From Propionibacteriaceae bacterium (GTDB taxonomy: Bacteria; Actinomycetota; Actinomycetes; Propionibacteriales; Propionibacteriaceae): 64,000 nt of DNA. The position numbers were made by a program, and so were the translations under genes. Under the pieces are notes generated by a model. It was not told where the DNA came from. It ran no database searches and was given only the letters and a program-made list of their open reading frames with translations. The stretch spans positions 7,656-71,655 of the forward strand of contig JAUNVL010000001.1 in NCBI GenBank assembly GCA_030537675.1, in the 5' to 3' direction. Shown here piece after piece: positions 55,171 through 63,012 of this stretch (position 1 is its first letter; every line of letters starts with the position of its first letter).

Positions 55171-56676
55171 TCAGTACGCGAAGGACAGGGGAGCGTCCGC
55201 GTCCGTGTCGTCGTCGATGGAGACCTCGTGGACGTCGGGGAGCCCCTTCTTCACGTAGTAGAGGAAGAGGCCAACCTCGATCACCGCCAGCACGCCGTAG
55301 AGCAGCGTGTAGACGATCATGGAAATCAGCACGGACATGGCGCTGACGCTGGCCGAGACTCCGGCAGCCGTCGGCATCACGCCTGCGACGAGCCAGGGTT
55401 GGCGGCCCATCTCGGTGAAGATCCAGCCGAAGGAGATGGCGAACAGCGGAAGCAGTGGCAGGGCAAACATGGCGGGCGTCCAGATCAGGTCCCAGACCTT
55501 GCCCTCGGGCGGCAACTTCTCCTTGCGGAGCAGCCACAGCAACGCCGCCCCCAGCAGGGTGCCAGCCATGCCGAGGCCGATCATCAGCCGGAAGGTCCAG
55601 AAGGACATGAAGACGTTGGGTGCCGGGTCCACGCCGGGGTAGTTCGTGGCCAGTTGTTCGGCGAACTCCTGCTGGATACGGGTCTGCGAGCCGTCGTTCT
55701 GCAGGAAGCCCTCCTCGGCGAACTGCTCGCGAAGGTTGTCGACGCCCTGAACGGTTTCCTCACCCGAGATCAAGGTGAGGAGCCCCGGCACCTTGATGGA
55801 GAAGATCTCCTTGGTTGCGTGCAGGTCACCGATGACCAGGAGCCGCATGGCTGCGTTGGTCTCGGTCTTGAACAAGCCCTCGGCCGCAGCCATCTTCATG
55901 GGCTGGACCTGCGTCATGATCCTGCCCTGCAGGTCGCCGGAGACGATGGTCAACACGGAGGCGACGATGAGCACCCAGGCGCCCATCTTCACGGCGAAGC
56001 GGTGGGCAGCCACAGCCTCGGGGTCGCGGAGATCGCCCTCGCGGCGCAGCTTCATGAGCCACCAGCCGGACACGCCCGCCATGAGTCCGCCAGCCGTCAT
56101 GAACGCGGCGGTGATGACGTGGGGGAACGTGACGAGGAAGACGGGGTTCAGGAGAACGTCAATGAATCCCTGTATGCCGTCCAGTTCGGCGCGTCCGTTG
56201 CGGAACGTGGTGCCCACGGGGTTCTGCATCCACGAGTTCGCGGCCAGGATGAACACTGACGACAGGAGGGTGCCGAACGCCACCATCCAGATGGTCAGCA
56301 GGTGAATCTTCTTGGGCAGCCTGTGCCAACCGAAGATCCACAGTCCGAGGAACGTGGATTCAAGGAAGAAGGCCAGCAGGGCCTCGAGCGCCAGCGGGGC
56401 GCCGAAGACGTCCCCCACGAAGCGCGAGTACTCGGACCAGTTCATGCCGAACTGGAACTCCTGCACGATGCCTGTGACAACGCCCAGGGCGAAGTTGATC
56501 AGGAGCAGCTTGCCGAAGAACTTGGTGAGCTGCAGGTACTTCGCGTGACCGGTTTTGTACCAGATGGTCTGAAGTACGGCCACCATCATCGCCAGGGCGA
56601 TGGTGATGGGCACGAAGAGAAAGTGGTAGACGGTGGTGATACCGAACTGCCACCGACCGAGGGTTACGGAGTCCAT
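55171..56676 (-). CDS. cydA: Cytochrome bd ubiquinol/menaquinol oxidase subunit I
   Basis: N-terminus LGRWQFGITTVYHFLFVPITI. The Q-loop region and GWIFTEMGRQPW motif are present. 501 aa. Confidence 0.9.
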   Translation of the reverse strand: MDSVTLGRWQFGITTVYHFLFVPITIALAMMVAVLQTIWYKTGHAKYLQLTKFFGKLLLINFALGVVTGIVQEFQFGMNWSEYSRFVGDVFGAPLALEALLAFFLESTFLGLWIFGWHRLPKKIHLLTIWMVAFGTLLSSVFILAANSWMQNPVGTTFRNGRAELDGIQGFIDVLLNPVFLVTFPHVITAAFMTAGGLMAGVSGWWLMKLRREGDLRDPEAVAAHRFAVKMGAWVLIVASVLTIVSGDLQGRIMTQVQPMKMAAAEGLFKTETNAAMRLLVIGDLHATKEIFSIKVPGLLTLISGEETVQGVDNLREQFAEEGFLQNDGSQTRIQQEFAEQLATNYPGVDPAPNVFMSFWTFRLMIGLGMAGTLLGAALLWLLRKEKLPPEGKVWDLIWTPAMFALPLLPLFAISFGWIFTEMGRQPWLVAGVMPTAAGVSASVSAMSVLISMIVYTLLYGVLAVIEVGLFLYYVKKGLPDVHEVSIDDDTDADAPLSFAY

Positions 56677-56766
56677 GGAGAGATTCTACTACCGGGCGTC
56701 GTTGATTCCAACTTGGAAACACCCTGTCGCAGCCCGTGCGGGAACGCACGTCATATGATGTCGCAC

Positions 56767-57123
56767 ATGGCAACCCGTGGACCTCTGGAGCAGACAGTGA
56801 TGGAACTGCTGTGGGCGACGCCGGATGCCCGCAGCGTGGCTGATGTGCTCGAGGAACTCAACAAGGAGCGGGACCTTGCCTACACCACGGTCATGACCGT
56901 CCTTGATCGACTCGCCAAGAAGGGCATGGTGACGCGCGAGCGGGTGGAGCGTGCCTGGCGCTATCTGCCCGCGGAGTCGCAGGACGTCGTCGTGGCCCGC
57001 GACCTCGTGGAAACGCTCGAGGGCGTGCCTGAGACCGTTCGGCGTCACGCCCTCCGACGGTTCTGTGACTCACTGCCAGAGGCCGAGCGACTGGCTCTTC
57101 TGAAGGCTGATTCCGCCACCTGA
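56767..57123 (+). CDS. BlaI/MecI/CopY-family winged-helix transcriptional repressor (orphan, no BlaR1-type sensor adjacent)
   Basis: In-frame 3-prime part of ORF 56302..57123. Motif block GPLEQTVMELLW...AYTTVMTVLDRLAKKGMVTRERVERAWRY. Start candidates are ATG 56755, 56758 and 56767. Confidence 0.8.
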   Translation: MATRGPLEQTVMELLWATPDARSVADVLEELNKERDLAYTTVMTVLDRLAKKGMVTRERVERAWRYLPAESQDVVVARDLVETLEGVPETVRRHALRRFCDSLPEAERLALLKADSAT

Positions 57124-57231: not shown

Positions 57232-58320
57232 TCAGCCGGTGTAGTCGGGTCGCTCGGCGAGCAGTTCTTTCTTCTGTGTGATTGCCGCGTCGAGTTCAGC
57301 GGCCCAGGCTTCCCGGCTGTCGGTTGCCGTGCGCTGGGCCGTCTGGTCGTCAACGCCCGGAAAGGCCGCCACCTCCTGACGCACCTCAAAACTCTCGTTC
57401 ATGGCGGATTCCACGTTGTCCCGCGTCTCGGCCAACGACTGTGCCAGCGTCTGCGTCGACATCGACTCGGCCAGCTTCCGCCGCTCATCCGCGACGTCCC
57501 AGTCGGCCTTCGGGAACGTCAGCTGCATCTCACTGAGAGTCCGGGTGAGGATTTCGGTGATGGCGAGGCGTGAATACCACTTGTGGTCGGCCGGCAGCAC
57601 GTACCACGGGGCATGCTCCGTGCTCGTCCTCTCGAAGACCGCCTGGTACGCAGTCTGGAATTCCGGCCACTTGCTGCGGGTCTGCAGGTCACCGGTGGTG
57701 TACTTCCAGTGCTTGTCGGACCTGTCCAGCCTCTCCATGAGGCGCAGTCCCTGCTCGGCGTGCGAGACCATGAGGGCGAACTTGAGGACGATCGTCCCGC
57801 TGGCCACCAGGTCCGCCTCGAACTTGTTGATCTCCTCGTAGCGCTTCTGCCACTCCTCCTCGGGTACGAGTTCATTGACGCGCACCACCAGGACGTCCTC
57901 GTAGTGGGAGCGGTCGAACACGCCGATCCGGCCGGCCGGGGGTAGTGCCTTGCGGATCCGCCACAGGTAGTGGTGTTTCCGCTCCTCCGCGCTGGGTACG
58001 CCGAACGAATGCAGCGCGACCCCCTGTGGATCGACGTAACCCATCACGTGGCGGACGATGCCGCCCTTGCCGGCAGTGTCGAGGCCCTGGATCACGCACA
58101 GCACCGCACGTTTCCCACCCGTGCGCCCCTCGGCGAACAGCCGCTCCTGCAACTCCGGCAGCAACTCCGCCCGCGTGGCCATCAGGGACTTGGCGTCCTT
58201 CTTGCTGCCCTCCCAGCCCGGGGTGCCGTTGCGGTCCAGGGCGGCCAGCCTGAAACCCTCGCCGGCACGCAGTGCCTCACGGGGATCAACGGTCCACAGC
58301 TTCTTCGGATTCTTGCTCAC
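57232..58320 (-). CDS. ppk2: Polyphosphate kinase 2 family (polyphosphate:nucleotide phosphotransferase) with ~80-aa C-terminal extension
   Basis: Motifs VIQGLDTAGKGG (Walker A-like), YLWRIRKALPPAGRIGVFDRSHYEDV and WYVLPADHKW. GTG 58320 is preceded by GGAGAGGA. The track ORF extends to 58503. Confidence 0.85.
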   Translation of the reverse strand: MSKNPKKLWTVDPREALRAGEGFRLAALDRNGTPGWEGSKKDAKSLMATRAELLPELQERLFAEGRTGGKRAVLCVIQGLDTAGKGGIVRHVMGYVDPQGVALHSFGVPSAEERKHHYLWRIRKALPPAGRIGVFDRSHYEDVLVVRVNELVPEEEWQKRYEEINKFEADLVASGTIVLKFALMVSHAEQGLRLMERLDRSDKHWKYTTGDLQTRSKWPEFQTAYQAVFERTSTEHAPWYVLPADHKWYSRLAITEILTRTLSEMQLTFPKADWDVADERRKLAESMSTQTLAQSLAETRDNVESAMNESFEVRQEVAAFPGVDDQTAQRTATDSREAWAAELDAAITQKKELLAERPDYTG

Positions 58321-58592
58321 GAGTGGGTCCTCTCCAAGGGTTGACCCATTCTTCCAGCCGGGCAGTCCTCTCCATCGGCATTCTGCTGGATGACCACGCC
58401 GGGTGCCTGAACGAGGGCGCTCTCCCACAGGCGGGACACGGGCATGAAATGGCCACGTGAGACGAAGATGATATTTCGGCGCGTCGTGGTCCCGAGTCCG
58501 CATCGAAGGGCTACCCTATGGCCGACAGTCTTCCCCCTGTCGTCAGTTCAGGCCTGCACTCTCGTCGACGAGATGCCCGCCCCAGATCGTCA

Positions 58593-60323
58593 ATGACGAA
58601 GATCGGAGCTCCCGTGAGTTCACCCCTGCTCGCCCTCATCGGCATCGCCATGATGGTCATGGGCTACCTGTTCTACTCGAAATTTCTAGTCAAACACATT
58701 TTCAAGCTGGACAACAGCATCCCGACGCCCGCGCACACGCGCCAGGACGGCGTGGACTACGTCCCCACCAACATGTACGTCCTGTGGGGTCACCACTTCA
58801 CATCCGTGGCAGGCGCCGCACCCATCGTCGGGCCTGCGGTGGCTGTCATCTGGGGCTGGCTGCCCGCGTTCCTGTGGGTGACGATCGGCACGGTCTTTTT
58901 CGCGGGCATGCATGACATGGGCGCCTTGTGGGCATCCGTCCGCAACAAGGGCAACTCCATCGGCACCCTTTCGGGGCGCTACATCGGCAACCGCGGGCGC
59001 AACCTGTTCCTCGTCGTGATCTTCCTGCTGCTGCTCATGGTCAACGCCGCGTTCGCCGTCGTCATCTCCAAGCTGCTCGTCGGCACACCCACCGCAGTCA
59101 TCCCCACGTGGGGTGCAATCCTGGTGGCGCTCATCGTGGGTCAGGCGATCTACCGGTGGAAGCTCCCGCTGGTGTGGGTGTCGATCGTCGGTGTGGTGGC
59201 GCTGTACTCGCTGATCATTCTCGGCGACAACTTCCCCGTGGTGCTGCCCGAGACCGTGATGGGGCTCTCCGCTGCGTCGTTCTGGGTGCTCGTGCTCTTC
59301 CTCTACGCCGGTGTCGCGTCGGTGCTGCCGGTGTGGATGCTGCTCCAGCCCCGCGACTACATCAACGGCCTCCAGCTCTTCGTGGGCCTGGCCATTCTCT
59401 ACATCTCCGTCCTCATCGCCTCGCCCACCATCGTGGCCCCCGCCATCAACACGGCGGTGCCGGAGGGGACTCCCAGCCTGGTGCCGCTGCTGTTCGTCAC
59501 GATCGCCTGTGGCGCCATCTCCGGATTCCATGGAGTGGTGGCATCGGGGACCAGCGCCAAGCAGTTGGACAAGGAATCCGACGCACGTTTCGTCGGCTAC
59601 TTCGGTTCCGTTGGCGAAGGCCTGTTGGCGCTGGGAGCGATCATCGCTGCCACTGCCGGGTTCAAGACACTGGCCGACTGGGAAGCCGTCTACTCCGCGT
59701 TCAACCAAGGTGGCGTCGCAGCCTTCGTGCAGGGTGGCGGTTCCATCCTCAACGCTGGTCTGGGCCTCCCGGTGTCACTGAGCGCCACCATCCTGGCGAC
59801 GATGGCGGTGCTGTTCGCAGCCACCACCATGGACACCGGCATCCGTCTCCAGCGGTTCGTTGTCCAGGAAGCCGCCGAGATCATGGGGGTCAAGGTGGGC
59901 AAGTTCGTGGCCACCATCGTCGTGCTCGTGGTGGGCATGGGGCTCGCCTTCGGCGCGGGTGCCGACGGTGCGGGCGGCATGGTCATCTGGCCGTTGTTCG
60001 GCACCACCAACCAGTTGCTGGCAGGCCTGACGCTGTCCATCATCGCGGTGATCCTGCTGCGCAAGCGCCGCAACGTCCTGCCGATCCTCATCCCGCTGGT
60101 GTTCGTGATGGTGATGTCCGTCTACGCGGCGGTCGTCCAGCTGGGGACCTTCTACTCCACCCAGAACTGGCTGCTCCTCGGCCTGGACGCCATCATCCTG
60201 GTGGCTGCGCTCTGGGTGATCGTGGAATCGGTGATCGCCATGAACAAGGCGCGCACCGGTCCTGAGGAACTCGACGATGAGGACCGTGTCACTGCTCGCG
60301 AGGACGAACCCGCCCCGCGATGA
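58593..60323 (+). CDS. cstA: Carbon starvation protein A family peptide/pyruvate transporter
   Basis: Motifs LWGHHFTSVAGAAPIVGPAVAV, ISGFHGVVASGTSAKQL and PLFGTTNQLLA. ATG 58593 is chosen within ORF 58518..60323. Confidence 0.9.
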   Translation: MTKIGAPVSSPLLALIGIAMMVMGYLFYSKFLVKHIFKLDNSIPTPAHTRQDGVDYVPTNMYVLWGHHFTSVAGAAPIVGPAVAVIWGWLPAFLWVTIGTVFFAGMHDMGALWASVRNKGNSIGTLSGRYIGNRGRNLFLVVIFLLLLMVNAAFAVVISKLLVGTPTAVIPTWGAILVALIVGQAIYRWKLPLVWVSIVGVVALYSLIILGDNFPVVLPETVMGLSAASFWVLVLFLYAGVASVLPVWMLLQPRDYINGLQLFVGLAILYISVLIASPTIVAPAINTAVPEGTPSLVPLLFVTIACGAISGFHGVVASGTSAKQLDKESDARFVGYFGSVGEGLLALGAIIAATAGFKTLADWEAVYSAFNQGGVAAFVQGGGSILNAGLGLPVSLSATILATMAVLFAATTMDTGIRLQRFVVQEAAEIMGVKVGKFVATIVVLVVGMGLAFGAGADGAGGMVIWPLFGTTNQLLAGLTLSIIAVILLRKRRNVLPILIPLVFVMVMSVYAAVVQLGTFYSTQNWLLLGLDAIILVAALWVIVESVIAMNKARTGPEELDDEDRVTAREDEPAPR

Positions 60324-60589
60324 CTGATCGTCCAGAAACCGCGTGGGCCCGCTTCTCGGCGGGCCTGCGCGATTTCTACGCCGCGCCCTATCGCCGGGCG
60401 TTCGCCCGCGCGCAGCGCGACGAGGACGACCTGTTCATGATGATCGTGCTGGCCGAGTCGTTGGGCGTGCCCAACCCTGTCAGCTACTACACGGTGGAGC
60501 TGCTTCCTGTGATGTACGACCGGTTCCACGAATGGCACACGAGGATGGGCATGGAACACTCACCGCTGGACTACCTGTCATGCTGCTAG
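60320..60589 (+). CDS. Small (89 aa) protein ending in Cys-Cys-stop, coupled to cstA and to an ArsA-like ATPase
   Basis: ATG 60320 overlaps the cstA stop (ATGA). The C-terminus is ...PLDYLSCC followed by TAG at 60587-60589. I recall an NCBI family label for small actinobacterial CC-stop proteins (cory-CC-star) but cannot verify membership here. Confidence 0.7.
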
Positions 60590-61584
60590 AGCTCGCCGCG
60601 TCGAGGCAGGTGTTGTTCGTGGGCGGCAAGGGCGGGGTGGGCAAGACATCTGTTGCCTCCGCCCTGGCGTTGCACCAGGCGCGTGCCGGGCGCCGCGTGC
60701 TGGTGGTCTCCACCGACCCGGCACACAACCTCGGTCATCTGTGGAACAGACGCGTCGGGGACAAGGTGGTGTCGCTGGCCCCCGGGGTCTCGGGGATGGA
60801 AATCGATCCGGCACGCACCACCGACGAGCACCTGGCCGCCGTCGGACACACGATGCGGCGCCTGATGCCGGAGCACCTCTCAGGCGAGGTCAGCAAACAC
60901 CTGGAGTTGGCCCGTGATGCTCCGGGCACCCACGAGGCGGCCATCCTCGAGCGGATCGCCGATGTGTTGGAGACTGCTCTGCAGGACCATGACCTGGTGG
61001 TGTTCGACACCGCACCCTCGGGACACACGGCACGGCTGATGTCACTGCCGGAGACGATGTCCGCCTGGACCGAGGGCCTGCTCCGCCGCCAGGATCGCTC
61101 GGAGCGCTTCGGGGCTGCTCTCCGCGGGTTGGACGATGGGCCCGAACACGGGATCGTCGGTGGTTCGGGGCGCCGTGGCGACTCAAGGGCCGAGCGTGAC
61201 CATGAGATCCGCCGCGTTTTGTTGCGTCGCCGCGCCCGGTTCGAGCGACTCCGCGATGTGATCTCCGATGAGGAGCGGACGGCCTTCGTGATCGTGCTCG
61301 CCGCCGAGAGGCTGCCGGTGCTGGAGACGATCGAACTGCACGGGCAACTGTCCCGGGCAGGCGTGCGGGTGGGCGGGCTCGTGGTGAACAAGCGCTCGCC
61401 CGAGGACTCGGGGGACTTCCTGGCCGAGCGGCGCAGGCAGGAGGACGTCCACCTCGCGACGATCCACAAGGCTCTGCCCAACGTGCCACTCATCGAACTG
61501 CCGCTGCTCTCCGGCGACATCGTTGGAGAAGACGCTCTGGAGAAGTTCGGGGCTCGCATCGAGCGTGCGGACGCCACGGCCTGA
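60580..61584 (+). CDS. ArsA/Get3-family P-loop ATPase (single-domain)
   Basis: In-frame part of ORF 60343..61584. ATG 60580 gives [24 protein letters not shown] (deviant Walker A). [10 protein letters not shown] and the DTAPSGHT signature are present. Confidence 0.85.
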
Positions 61585-61590
61585 CGTCGG

Positions 61591-61621
61591 GGCGGGCAGG
61601 CGTTGACGGAAGAAGCCCGCC
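61591..61621. terminator. Hairpin between convergent ArsA-like and MFS genes
   Basis: GGCGGGC (61591-61597) pairs with GCCCGCC (61615-61621). The 17-nt loop makes this a weak call. Confidence 0.35.
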
Positions 61622-61658
61622 AGTCATTGCTTTTCAGTGGGGACCGCGAGGAGCCAAC

Positions 61659-62897
61659 TCAGGCCGCAGGGGCCTTCGCGAGTCTTCCTGAGCGGAAGGC
61701 CCGTGGCAGGAGGACGACGGCGGGGAGCAGGATGACGGCCGCGGTGATGTTGACCGCCTCGAAGCCTCCGAACGCCAGGATGGGGCCGGCCAGTGCGGCC
61801 GCTGCAGCGCCCGCATAGTTCATTCCCGCGTCCGTGGCACCCTGCAGGGGGACGCGCACGTGGGAGGGAGCCAGAGCGGTCACCAGTGCGGAGCCTGCGA
61901 TCACCGCGGCGGACCAGCCCAGGCCGAGCAGGACCAGGGCCACCATGGTGAGGCTCGTGGCACCGGATGCAGCCACGAACCCCGTGGCCACCGCCGAGCC
62001 CTGCAGCACGATGCCCAGCATCGCCACCGGCACCGGGCCGAAACGGTCGACGGCCCACCCGAACACCGGGCTCAGGGCGTACATGCCCAGCACGTGAAGG
62101 CTGATGACGATCCCCACCAACTGCAGAGTGTCGCCCTGGTTCCCCATGTGCACGGGGGTCATCACCATGACCATGACCATGACCGCATGGGCCACTGCGA
62201 TGAGGACCACGGCGAAGAGTGCCGCGGGTTGACCGGCGGCCCAGCGCAGGGCCGCGACCGCACCCACGGGCGGTAGCGCGTCGGCCGCGTCGACCTCTGC
62301 CTGCGATGGGGTGGGTTGGGTCGTGGGACGGAAGAAGAGCGCGAGGACGGTGGCAGCCGTGGCGAAGGAGACGACGGAGAAGAGAAACGGACCCGTGAAT
62401 GCTGGCAGGCTCAATCCTGCCCCGAATCGGTCGCCGGGCGCCGCGAGGTTCGGTCCGGCGACGGCACCGACCGTCGTGGCCCACAACACGATGGACATGG
62501 CTCTGGCGCGCGACGCGGGTGAGACGTTCTCCGCACCCGCGTACCGGGTCTGCAGGTTGACGGCCTGCGCAACGCCGAACAGGCCCATGCCCACCAGCAT
62601 CACGATGATTTGCCCTGAGAGTGCTGCGGCGACGATGAGCAGGGCCCCGACGGTGGCCAGGGCGTAGCCGCGGCTGAGCGACACCCGTCGGCCGCGACGG
62701 GCGGCAACGTTCGCCAGGGGGACTGCCGCCACCGCTGCGCCCAAGGTGCTGCATGCCTGCGCGAAGCCAGCCATGGACGTGCCGCCCAGATCCTGTGCGA
62801 GCAGCCCGCCCACGGCGAATCCAGAAGCAACACCCACCCCGCCCAGGAGATTACTGACGATCAGCACACCAATGCTGCGTCCATACCGGCGGGCCAT
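61659..62897 (-). CDS. MFS transporter (12 TM, drug/metabolite type)
   Basis: ORF 61659..62984. ATG 62897 is preceded by GAGAGGAA and gives MARRYGRSIGVLIVSNLLGG. The protein is polytopic. Confidence 0.85.
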   Translation of the reverse strand: MARRYGRSIGVLIVSNLLGGVGVASGFAVGGLLAQDLGGTSMAGFAQACSTLGAAVAAVPLANVAARRGRRVSLSRGYALATVGALLIVAAALSGQIIVMLVGMGLFGVAQAVNLQTRYAGAENVSPASRARAMSIVLWATTVGAVAGPNLAAPGDRFGAGLSLPAFTGPFLFSVVSFATAATVLALFFRPTTQPTPSQAEVDAADALPPVGAVAALRWAAGQPAALFAVVLIAVAHAVMVMVMVMTPVHMGNQGDTLQLVGIVISLHVLGMYALSPVFGWAVDRFGPVPVAMLGIVLQGSAVATGFVAASGATSLTMVALVLLGLGWSAAVIAGSALVTALAPSHVRVPLQGATDAGMNYAGAAAAALAGPILAFGGFEAVNITAAVILLPAVVLLPRAFRSGRLAKAPAA

Positions 62898-63012
62898 GTC
62901 GTTCCTCTCAGTTGGGCAGCAGGGAGCTTGCGAGAGACATGCTCCCACGACACAGTCGCGAGAGCACGGTGACCCGGGCGGCAAGATCAGGAAGGGTATG
63001 TGTATGCGGGCG

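What the first reader, a model, noticed from the sequence alone, without database searches (positions are those of the whole stretch)
58593..61584. cstA / Cys-Cys-terminated small protein / ArsA(Get3)-like ATPase as one translationally coupled operon
All three junctions are coupled.
- The cstA stop overlaps the small-ORF ATG (ATGA at 60320-60323).
- The ATPase ATG (60580-60582) overlaps the first of the two terminal Cys codons of the small ORF.

From memory, E. coli CstA-family genes (cstA-ybdD, yjiY/btsT-yjiX) are also followed by a small DUF466 protein that ends in Cys-Cys. The 89-aa protein here looks otherwise unrelated in sequence and is additionally tied to an ArsA/Get3-type ATPase.

ArsA/Get3 ATPases act on cysteine-ligated metalloids or deliver proteins to membranes. 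A hypothesis is therefore that the ATPase handles the CC-tailed protein as an accessory or regulatory subunit of the CstA transporter. The function of such CC-stop proteins is, to my knowledge, unknown.
Basis: partly seen in the sequence, partly recalled or inferred. Interest (0 to 1): 0.65.

Follow-up and report, generated by a model that had tools for sequence, protein, structure and literature searches.

The report
CstA transporter, CstX, Get3-like ATPase operon
This is a real three-gene operon (a CstA-family permease, an 89-residue protein ending in Cys-Cys, and a Get3/ArsA-type ATPase) of a kind first described by genome comparison in 2010 and found in both bacteria and archaea, but never tested in the laboratory.

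Summary
cstA (58593-60323), an 89-codon gene ending Cys-Cys (60320-60589) and a 334-codon ArsA/Get3-type ATPase (60580-61584) overlap by 4 and 10 bases.

- **Small protein:** it is a clear member of NCBIfam NF041419 "cory-CC-star" (134 bits, cut-off 80). Its relatives carry Pfam PF25952 (DUF7990). It shows no detectable homology to DUF466 (YbdD/YjiX).
- **Prior description:** the trio is very probably the cstA-cstX-arsA-homologue operon reported by Castillo and Saier (2010). They proposed that the ATPase energises CstA through CstX.
- **Invariant core:** across about 256 loci the small protein plus ATPase pair is nearly always present. In 67 of 80 loci the ATPase start codon sits on the first Cys codon.
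- **CstA linkage:** CstA is linked in Actinobacteria and Xanthomonadales (upstream) and in Halobacteria (mostly downstream). It is absent within 5-10 kb in Pseudohongiella-like, acidobacterial and Synergistetes lineages.
- **Cys-Cys end:** it is not universal and co-occurs with an HxWH motif.
- **No Get3 or ArsA hallmarks:** the ATPases have few or no cysteines, and the small protein has no membrane helix.

Verdict: a new member of a known but uncharacterised system. Moderate interest.

The parts
58593..60323 (+). cstA-family permease gene (576 codons from the ATG at 58593; an in-frame ATG at 58518 is also open)
   Evidence: Pfam CstA PF02554, E 2.6e-133. It is 31% identical to E. coli CstA and lacks a stretch of about 65 residues present in the E. 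coli protein. It scores far below the E. coli CstA equivalog cut-off (218 against 1188 bits). Homologues align from residue 1-8 of the 58593 start.
60320..60589 (+). cstX-like small gene, 89 codons (cory-CC-star / DUF7990), ending Ser-Cys-Cys-stop
   Evidence: NCBIfam NF041419, 134.4 bits against a cut-off of 80. Relatives carry PF25952 = DUF7990. 119 of 120 relatives end in CC. Substitution pattern shows purifying selection. The AF2 model is a helical hairpin (helices 5-48 and 53-75) with a free tail, pLDDT 70. No transmembrane helix: maximum 19-residue Kyte-Doolittle hydropathy average is 1.23.
60580..61584 (+). single-domain ArsA/Get3-family (intradimeric Walker A) ATPase gene, 334 codons
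   Evidence: TIGR00345 GET3_arsA_TRC40, 216 bits against a cut-off of 135; Pfam ArsA_ATPase, E 2.3e-59. P-loop GGKGGVGKT and switch II DTAPSGH are visible in the translation. No cysteine in the protein. The AF2 model has pLDDT 82 and pTM 0.79, and the best fold matches are archaeal Get3/TRC40 3zq6 and 3ug6.
60320..60323 (+). ATGA overlap of the cstA stop codon and the small-gene start codon
   Evidence: Read directly from the sequence. The same NTGA overlap occurs in 16 of 39 cstA-linked loci.
60580..60589 (+). ATGCTGCTAG: the ATPase start codon overlapping the Ser, Cys, Cys and stop codons of the small gene
   Evidence: Read directly from the sequence. The same register, with an A/G/T-TG start, occurs in 67 of 80 loci. 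It fixes the ATPase N-terminus as Met-Leu-Leu.

Best explanation
The region is a cstA-cstX-arsA-homologue operon encoding a three-part transport system.

**Proposed mechanism**
- The small protein (CstX = DUF7990 = cory-CC-star) is a soluble helical hairpin made in step with a homodimeric Get3-fold ATPase. I take it to be that ATPase's dedicated partner subunit.
- I think it acts as the adaptor that docks the ATPase dimer onto the cytoplasmic face of the CstA-family permease. The ATP-driven open/closed cycle of the ATPase would then switch on, or add energy to, transport by CstA.
- This parallels ArsA acting on the secondary carrier ArsB, and it fills the accessory role that the unrelated YbdD has for E. 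coli CstA.
- In the bacterial clade, the C-terminal Cys-Cys together with the HxWH pair on helix 2 probably forms a metal-binding or thiol-redox site. That site would fix or regulate the tail. It is not the element that binds the ATPase.

**Status of each step**
- Shown: gene identities, coupling, conservation and co-occurrence.
- Inferred: physical contacts, direction of energy coupling, substrate, and the role of the Cys and His residues.
For: - **Partnership with the ATPase:** an ATPase gene lies immediately downstream of the small gene in 80 of 80, about 75 of 77, 80 of 80 and 19 of 19 loci of four divergent clades. A further example is L258.
- **Translational coupling:** the ATPase start codon sits on the Cys codon in 67 of 80 loci. 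This argues for matched production of the two proteins, as expected for subunits of one complex.
- **Link to CstA in two gene orders:** the order is cstA-small-ATPase in Actinobacteria and Xanthomonadales (39 of 80 loci). In Halobacteria 79 of 80 loci have cstA within 5 kb, and 64 of those have the order small-ATPase-cstA.
- **Strong constraint on the small protein:** it is 65-70% identical between Actinobacteria and Gammaproteobacteria, whereas the ATPase is 53-62% identical. This fits a protein with two interfaces.
- **Published support:** Castillo and Saier 2010 found co-evolving trees for CstA, CstX and the ArsA homologues and proposed CstX as the linker.
- **Active ATPase:** catalytic motifs are intact in all clades and the fold is Get3/TRC40-like.
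- **Precedents:** ArsD-ArsA-ArsB hand-offs and ArsA boosting the secondary carrier ArsB (PMC12415280). YbdD is required with CstA for pyruvate uptake (PMC5847655; bioRxiv 10.1101/072470).
- **His and Cys pairing:** HxWH and the CC end co-occur in 48 of 52 representatives with HxWH. Of representatives without HxWH, 7 of 22 end in CC.
Against: - No experiment exists for any member, and I found no paper on cory-CC-star, DUF7990 or bacterial CstX beyond the 2010 survey.
- The pair occurs without cstA within 5-10 kb in Pseudohongiella-like gammaproteobacteria, Acidobacteriota and Acidimicrobiia, and Synergistetes. CstA is therefore not an obligatory neighbour, and I could not check whether those genomes encode CstA elsewhere.
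- ATP-assisted uptake through a proton symporter has no clear precedent. ArsAB is an exporter.
- No complex model could be made, because the structure tool handles single chains only.
- The small-protein model has only moderate confidence (pLDDT 70, pTM 0.34).
- That CstX is the same as DUF7990 is inferred from size, operon position and shared taxa, for example the 327-residue Haloquadratum walsbyi ATPase. I did not confirm it from a CstX sequence.
Confidence: 0.5

Rival explanations
1. Get3-style delivery. The ATPase dimer shields the hydrophobic hairpin of the small protein after translation. It then delivers the protein to the membrane and releases it onto CstA on ATP hydrolysis. The ATPase would be an assembly chaperone rather than a lasting part of the transporter.
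For: - The best fold matches are Get3/TRC40 proteins that carry tail-anchored clients.
- The small protein has a hydrophobic core stretch, [29 protein letters not shown].
- The model is only moderately confident, as expected for a protein that folds on a partner.
- ATPases of this class generally hand a cargo to a partner (PMC12415280).
Against: - There is no transmembrane helix. Maximum hydropathy is 1.23, and the hydrophobic stretch is broken by an almost invariant G-x-P-x-P turn.
- The helical subdomain of the window's ATPase is rich in Arg and Glu rather than Met and hydrophobic residues (sequence, secondary structure).
- Coupled translation at matched levels fits a stable complex better than a catalytic chaperone.
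Confidence: 0.2
2. The small protein plus ATPase is a self-contained module whose job does not depend on CstA. For example, it could hand over a thiol-bound ligand such as a metal or metalloid, or act as a redox switch, using the His2Cys2 site in the way ArsD and ArsA work together. Under this view CstA linkage is lineage-specific co-regulation, or CstA is only one of several targets.
For: - The pair stands alone in several phyla.
- HxWH and CC co-occur.
- The ATPases have few or no cysteines of their own, so the obvious thiols are on the small protein.
- ArsD uses a vicinal Cys pair to pass arsenite to ArsA.
- TonB-dependent receptor genes, and in one clade fur, lie nearby.
Against: - Archaeal and Synergistetes members lack both the His pair and the Cys pair but keep the ATPase partner, and the haloarchaeal ones also keep CstA.
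- There is no Pfam ArsD hit and no ars genes in the operon.
- Castillo and Saier report that ars genes and cst genes never share an operon.
- The trio is linked in two independent gene orders.
Confidence: 0.15
3. The small ORF or the gene overlaps are chance features of a G+C-rich genome and have no function.
For: High G+C DNA produces many spurious ORFs, and 4-nt overlaps are common in operons.
Against: - The family is recognised by a curated HMM well above its cut-off.
- 356 homologues were found.
- The substitution pattern is that of a coding gene.
- The overlap register is conserved across phyla.
Confidence: 0.01

Closest known systems
cstA-cstX-arsA-homologue operons (Castillo and Saier 2010, Int J Microbiol 2010:187373, PMC2963123)
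   Same: - A CstA permease, a protein of about 90 residues and a single-domain ArsA homologue of about 330 residues in one operon, with no ars genes.
- Found in both bacteria and archaea.
- Their cluster 18 (gammaproteobacteria plus Brevibacterium linens) and cluster 17 (including the 327-residue Haloquadratum walsbyi protein) match the clades I surveyed.
   Different: - They call CstX a single-transmembrane protein. Hydropathy and the AF2 model here indicate a soluble helical hairpin.
- They state that CstX never occurs without CstA. I find many pairs without cstA within 5-10 kb.
- In the passages I read they do not mention the Cys-Cys end or the start codon on the Cys codon.
- That CstX equals DUF7990 is my inference, not taken from a published sequence.
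CstA-YbdD and BtsT-YjiX of E. coli (DUF466, PF04328)
   Same: - A small protein ending in Cys-Cys is encoded just downstream of a CstA-family permease.
- YbdD is needed for CstA-dependent pyruvate uptake.
   Different: - No detectable homology. There is no PF04328 hit at E <= 1 for the window protein or for any of 60 family members, and hhalign gives 0.4-1.7% probability.
- DUF466 systems have no ATPase.
- The DUF466 end is Arg/Lys-Cys-Cys. Here the residue before Cys-Cys varies.
ArsD-ArsA-ArsB arsenite pump
   Same: - An ArsA-family ATPase, a small partner with a vicinal Cys pair, and a secondary carrier in one operon.
- The ATPase raises the efficiency of the carrier.
   Different: - The ATPase here has one domain rather than two and lacks the three metalloid-binding cysteines.
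- It scores 141 bits against the 650-bit cut-off of the ArsA equivalog.
- The small protein is not ArsD, and the membrane partner is CstA, not ArsB.
Get3/TRC40 tail-anchored protein targeting factor
   Same: - Best structural match, with query-normalised TM-score 0.71-0.76 to archaeal Get3/TRC40.
- A homodimer-type single-domain ATPase paired with a small helical protein.
   Different: - No CxxC zinc motif.
- The partner has no C-terminal transmembrane helix.
- No Get1/2-like receptor is evident. The membrane protein in the operon is a transporter.
BagA-BagB (Rv3679-Rv3680) of Mycobacterium tuberculosis
   Same: An actinobacterial Get3-like ATPase of unclear client.
   Different: The match is only weak: 58-59 bits against cut-offs of 400-521 in NCBIfam, and lower-ranked PDB hits to 6bs3. 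BagAB is a heterodimer of two ATPase paralogues with no small partner or CstA.

Membership tests
cory-CC-star protein (NCBIfam NF041419) | HMM score at or above the curated cut-off of 80 bits | tested here: met
   134.4 bits, E 1e-39, covering profile positions 2-80 of 80.
cory-CC-star protein (NCBIfam NF041419) | C-terminus Cys-Cys-stop | tested here: met
   The protein ends ...LSCC followed by TAG. 119 of 120 relatives end in CC.
DUF7990 (Pfam PF25952) | Match to the Pfam model | not testable with these tools
   The local Pfam copy returned no family for this protein and appears to lack this model. All listed relatives, from 65% to 91% identical, carry a precomputed PF25952 hit, and the model name is given.
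DUF466 / YbdD-YjiX (Pfam PF04328) | Match to the Pfam model or profile-level homology | tested here: not met
   No hit at E <= 1 for the window protein or for any of 60 family members. hhalign probability is 0.43% and 1.7%.
DUF466 / YbdD-YjiX (Pfam PF04328) | Encoded next to a CstA-family permease and ending in Cys-Cys | tested here: met
   Searches show this for the window, and searches show it for E. coli and other DUF466 members. This is a resemblance only and does not establish membership.
TRC40/GET3/ArsA transport-energizing ATPase (TIGR00345) | HMM above cut-off, deviant Walker A motif and DTAPxGH switch II | tested here: met
   216 bits against a cut-off of 135. GGKGGVGKT and DTAPSGH are present. 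Both are conserved in 77 of 77 relatives (P-loop) and 76 of 77 (DTAPSGH).
ArsA arsenical pump ATPase (TIGR04291) | Two tandem ATPase domains, three metalloid-binding cysteines, and the equivalog score | tested here: not met
   141 bits against a cut-off of 650. The protein has a single domain of 334 residues and no cysteine.
Get3 (tail-anchored protein targeting) | CxxC zinc-binding dimer motif | tested here: not met
   No CxxC in 77 of 77 close relatives, and only 2 instances in about 165 ATPases of the other clades.
Get3 (tail-anchored protein targeting) | Client with a C-terminal transmembrane helix | tested here: not met
   The maximum 19-residue hydropathy of the small protein is 1.23, and 0.89-1.40 in other clades. 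The AF2 model shows a hairpin broken at GVPNP.
Get3 (tail-anchored protein targeting) | Get3-like fold with a helical client-binding subdomain | tested here: met
   Foldseek top hits are 3zq6 and 3ug6, then yeast Get3. E values are 5e-25 to 1e-20, with query-normalised TM-scores of 0.69-0.76. Whether the groove is hydrophobic was not measured.
CstA family permease (Pfam PF02554) | Match to the Pfam model | tested here: met
   E 2.6e-133, 446 bits.
E. coli CstA pyruvate/proton symporter equivalog (NF011590) | Score at or above 1188 bits | tested here: not met
   218 bits and 31% identity. The substrate cannot be transferred from E. coli CstA.
cstA-cstX-arsA-homologue operon (Castillo and Saier 2010) | CstA, a CstX of about 90 residues and a single-domain ArsA homologue of about 330 residues in one operon, with no ars genes | tested here: met
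   The three proteins have 576, 89 and 334 residues and their genes overlap. The flanking genes are PPK2 and an MFS transporter on the other strand. The features are listed. Sequence identity to a published CstX could not be checked.
ArsD metallochaperone | ArsD family match | tested here: not met
   No Pfam family at E <= 1 for the small protein.

The most novel reading that the evidence does not exclude
The DUF7990 protein plus its Get3-fold ATPase may be an ancient two-protein, ATP-driven module shared by Bacteria and Archaea. It could plug into different membrane partners, with CstA only the most frequent one. In bacteria its action would be set by a His2Cys2 metal or redox site on the small protein. 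That would be a new way of putting a secondary transporter, or another target, under ATP and thiol control.
Probability: 0.25. Interest if true: 0.7.

Novelty: new member of a known kind. Interest (0 to 1): 0.4.

Why it matters
- **Role of Cys-Cys accessory proteins:** CstA-family permeases are widespread pyruvate and peptide importers linked to starvation. Why they need small accessory proteins that end in Cys-Cys is unknown.
- **ATPase coupling:** this system joins such a permease to a Get3/ArsA-type ATPase through a dedicated small protein. It therefore offers a second case, besides ArsAB, for studying how this ATPase class acts on a secondary carrier.
- **Function of bacterial Get3 homologues:** it also offers a defined partner for asking what single-domain bacterial Get3 homologues do. 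That question is still open (PMC6593721).
- **Unified naming:** three names that are not connected in the papers I could search appear to be the same thing: CstX, cory-CC-star and DUF7990.
- **Ready experiments:** clear tests follow directly, namely Cys and His mutants, ATPase mutants and uptake assays.

Tried and rejected
1. **Membership in DUF466:** rejected by hmmscan and two profile-profile comparisons.
2. **Fold match for the small protein:** no PDB hit at E <= 10.
3. **Tail-anchored client idea:** rejected, because there is no transmembrane helix.
4. **Metalloid-binding or zinc-bridged ATPase:** rejected, because the ATPases have few or no cysteines and almost never a CxxC.
5. **Riboswitch or terminator signals in the operon:** no Rfam match at E <= 0.1 and no terminator-like sites above shuffle expectation.
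6. **Clustering flank ORFs of the acidobacterial loci to find a third conserved partner:** spurious high-GC ORFs merged everything into giant clusters. Pfam on selected flanks showed variable neighbours.
7. **Alignment-based locus search for the divergent clade:** Replaced by single-protein queries.
8. **Literature searches:** cory-CC-star, DUF7990/PF25952 and Haloferax+CstA+ArsA each found nothing. CstX found only the 2010 paper among prokaryote work.
9. **A simple link between the CC end and CstA adjacency:** rejected. Haloarchaea have CstA without CC, and Acidobacteriota have CC without adjacent CstA.
Full report
**1. Observation**

The window holds three same-strand genes.
- A CstA-family permease gene runs from 58593 (or from the upstream ATG at 58518) to 60323.
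- An 89-codon gene at 60320-60589 ends Leu-Ser-Cys-Cys-TAG.
- A 334-codon ATPase gene lies at 60580-61584.

The cstA stop and the small-gene start share ATGA at 60320-60323. The ATPase ATG at 60580 is formed by the last base of the Ser codon and the first two bases of the first Cys codon. There are two junctions, not three.

The operon is bounded by genes on the other strand: a PPK2 polyphosphate kinase gene (57232-58503) and an MFS transporter gene (61659-62984). There is no Rfam match in 57500-62200, and no terminator-like site above shuffle expectation in 58000-62000.

**2. Gene identities**

- **Permease:** Pfam CstA, E 2.6e-133. It is only 31% identical to E. coli CstA, lacks a stretch of about 65 residues, and scores far below the E. 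coli equivalog cut-off.
- **ATPase:** it passes TIGR00345 (GET3/ArsA/TRC40; 216 bits against 135) but fails the true ArsA equivalog (141 against 650). It has the deviant Walker A motif GGKGGVGKT and the DTAPSGH switch II motif, and contains no cysteine.
  - Its AF2 model (pLDDT 82, pTM 0.79) is closest to archaeal Get3/TRC40 (3zq6, 3ug6), then yeast Get3, then ArsA.
  - By sequence profile the closest solved relatives are algal ArsA1, E. coli ArsA and archaeal Get3.
- **Small protein:** it is a member of NCBIfam NF041419 "cory-CC-star" (134.4 bits against 80). Its relatives carry Pfam PF25952, named DUF7990.
  - It is under strong purifying selection.
  - It is modelled as a helical hairpin (helices 5-48 and 53-75) with a free C-terminal tail, at moderate confidence.
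  - It has no fold match in the PDB and no transmembrane helix.

**3. Relation to DUF466**

E. coli YbdD ends Arg-Cys-Cys and follows cstA. DUF466 members end in RCC or KCC.

There is no detectable homology to the cory-CC-star family.
- No PF04328 hit at E <= 1 for the window protein or for any of 60 family members.
- hhalign probabilities are 0.4% and 1.7%.

The shared Cys-Cys end next to CstA is therefore a resemblance between unrelated families.

**4. Conservation survey**

| Clade | Loci | ATPase immediately downstream | CstA linkage |
|---|---|---|---|
| Close family (65-96% identity): Actinobacteria, Luteimonas, Pseudohongiella-like | 80 | 80 of 80 | directly upstream in 39 loci (Actinobacteria, Luteimonas); none in the rest |
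| Divergent "LPCC" clade: Acidobacteriota, Acidimicrobiia | 77 | about 75 of 77 | none within 5 kb in these phyla; the 5 lowest-scoring hits (from other clades) have it upstream |
| Haloarchaea (tail ends QYHF, no cysteine) | 80 | 80 of 80 | 79 of 80 within 5 kb; 64 directly downstream of the ATPase |
| Synergistetes and one Heimdallarchaeota MAG | 19 | 19 of 19 | none, except a haloarchaeal outlier |

Further details:
- In the close family the ATPase reading frame starts on the first Cys codon with ATG, GTG or TTG in 67 of 80 loci.
- In Pseudohongiella-like gammaproteobacteria the pair follows SNF-ratA-rnfH, and no cstA lies within 10 kb.
- Flanks of the LPCC clade vary between loci.
- Tails in the Synergistetes clade end QYDFD, QYDFG, QYDFC or QYDFCC.
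- One "GGFRCC" example sits between a DUF885 gene and a P-loop ATPase gene.

The invariant core is therefore the small protein plus the ATPase. CstA is linked in two independent gene orders, in Bacteria and in Archaea, but it is not always adjacent.

The whole superfamily is small: 181 representatives at 50% identity.

**5. The Cys-Cys end**

In representatives with a complete tail, HxWH on helix 2 and the CC end go together.
- 48 of 52 representatives with HxWH end in CC, and the four exceptions look like damaged tails.
- Of representatives without HxWH (mostly ExWE), 7 of 22 end in CC.

The ATPases of all clades have few or no cysteines and almost never a CxxC.

I infer that His70, His73, Cys88 and Cys89 form one site in the bacterial clade, either metal-binding or redox-active. 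I also infer that the part recognised by the ATPase is the conserved hairpin core (D-x-F-x-L-L ... G-x-P-N-P ... Y-Y-T-x-E-L-x-P ... W-x-R-R-M), because that core is shared by CC-less members.

**6. Prior knowledge**

- **Castillo and Saier 2010 (PMC2963123):** they reported 26 cases of cstA with a single-domain ArsA homologue of about 330 residues, 24 of them with a CstX of about 90 residues. They showed co-evolving trees and proposed that the ATPase energises CstA with CstX as the linker. Their clusters include the 327-residue Haloquadratum walsbyi protein and Brevibacterium linens together with gammaproteobacteria, which match my clades.
- **No follow-up:** I found no follow-up paper and no paper naming cory-CC-star or DUF7990.
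- **Farkas et al. 2019:** they list single-domain bacterial Get3 homologues without CxxC as being of unknown function.
- **Experimental basis for a small accessory protein of CstA:** YbdD is required with CstA for pyruvate uptake, and DUF466 genes show the same fitness pattern as cstA-like genes in mutant screens.

**7. Mechanism**

Best reading, confidence 0.5: the small protein is the adaptor subunit of the ATPase dimer and couples its ATP cycle to the CstA permease, as ArsA does with ArsB.

In favour:
- the universal, translationally coupled pairing;
- the two gene orders with CstA;
- the very high conservation of the small protein relative to the ATPase.

Rivals:
- Get3-like delivery of the small protein to CstA (0.2).
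- A CstA-independent metal or redox hand-off module (0.15).
- Chance (0.01).

**8. Points that differ from the literature, or that I did not find in it**

- CstX, cory-CC-star and DUF7990 are probably the same family.
- The pair occurs without adjacent cstA, contrary to the 2010 statement.
- The small protein is probably soluble rather than a single-pass membrane protein.
- The ATPase start codon sits on the Cys codon, and this is conserved.
- The CC end is specific to certain clades and is tied to HxWH.

**9. Verdict**

The feature is real and conserved, and this locus is a new member of a kind already described by genome comparison. The biology remains untested, so interest is moderate.

Noticed in passing
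L259-L261 (for example L259:7779-14016); also L015 and L025: In Pseudohongiella-like gammaproteobacteria the small gene and ATPase sit in a tight same-strand run: SNF-family symporter, ratA, rnfH, DUF7990, ATPase. A conserved gene of about 103 codons with no Pfam hit and a TonB-dependent receptor gene follow. This whole block lies between smpB and bamE-fur-recN-grpE-dnaK.
   Followed up: partly
L166, L170, L210 (haloarchaeal ATPases): Haloarchaeal partner ATPases have DTSPTGGT in place of the DTAPTGHT switch II signature (His replaced by Gly). The P-loop is intact.
   Followed up: no
P0241, P0313, P0353, P0339, P0386: Some database representatives are chimeras: CstA plus small protein, ATPase N-terminus plus small-protein C-terminus, or small protein plus ATPase C-terminus. 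They are probably frameshifts or assembly errors across the overlapping junctions rather than true fusions.
   Followed up: no
L027, L040, L049, L090, L091, L141, L145: Several MAG records are titled Klebsiella or Bifidobacterium. Their loci are near-identical in arrangement to the Pseudohongiella-like or acidobacterial ones, so the taxonomic labels look wrong.
   Followed up: no
window 58593-60323 compared with L081:895-2997: The window's CstA lacks a stretch of about 65 residues that E. coli CstA carries between its two halves (E. coli residues about 385-445). It is also 125 residues shorter overall.
   Followed up: no
window 57232-58503 (-): The PPK2 polyphosphate kinase ORF is 423 codons long, but the Pfam domain covers only residues 101-326. 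The long N-terminal part of the ORF may not be translated, which would place the true start further downstream and widen the gap to cstA.
   Followed up: no
L258:1-516: In one "GGFRCC" clade example the small gene overlaps by 4 nt the end of a DUF885 (metallopeptidase-like) gene. It is followed 4 nt later by a P-loop ATPase gene whose N-terminus looks more like MinD or FlhG than ArsA.
   Followed up: partly
L078:4045-4050; P0034, P0097, P0295, P0332: A few family members end in three or more cysteines (CCC, CSCCC). Many close members use TGA as the stop codon directly after Cys-Cys. I did not check whether any of these TGA codons encodes selenocysteine.
   Followed up: no
window 55171-57123: Upstream of the operon lie cydA (cytochrome bd subunit I, minus strand) and a BlaI/MecI-type repressor gene (56755-57123, plus strand).
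   Followed up: no
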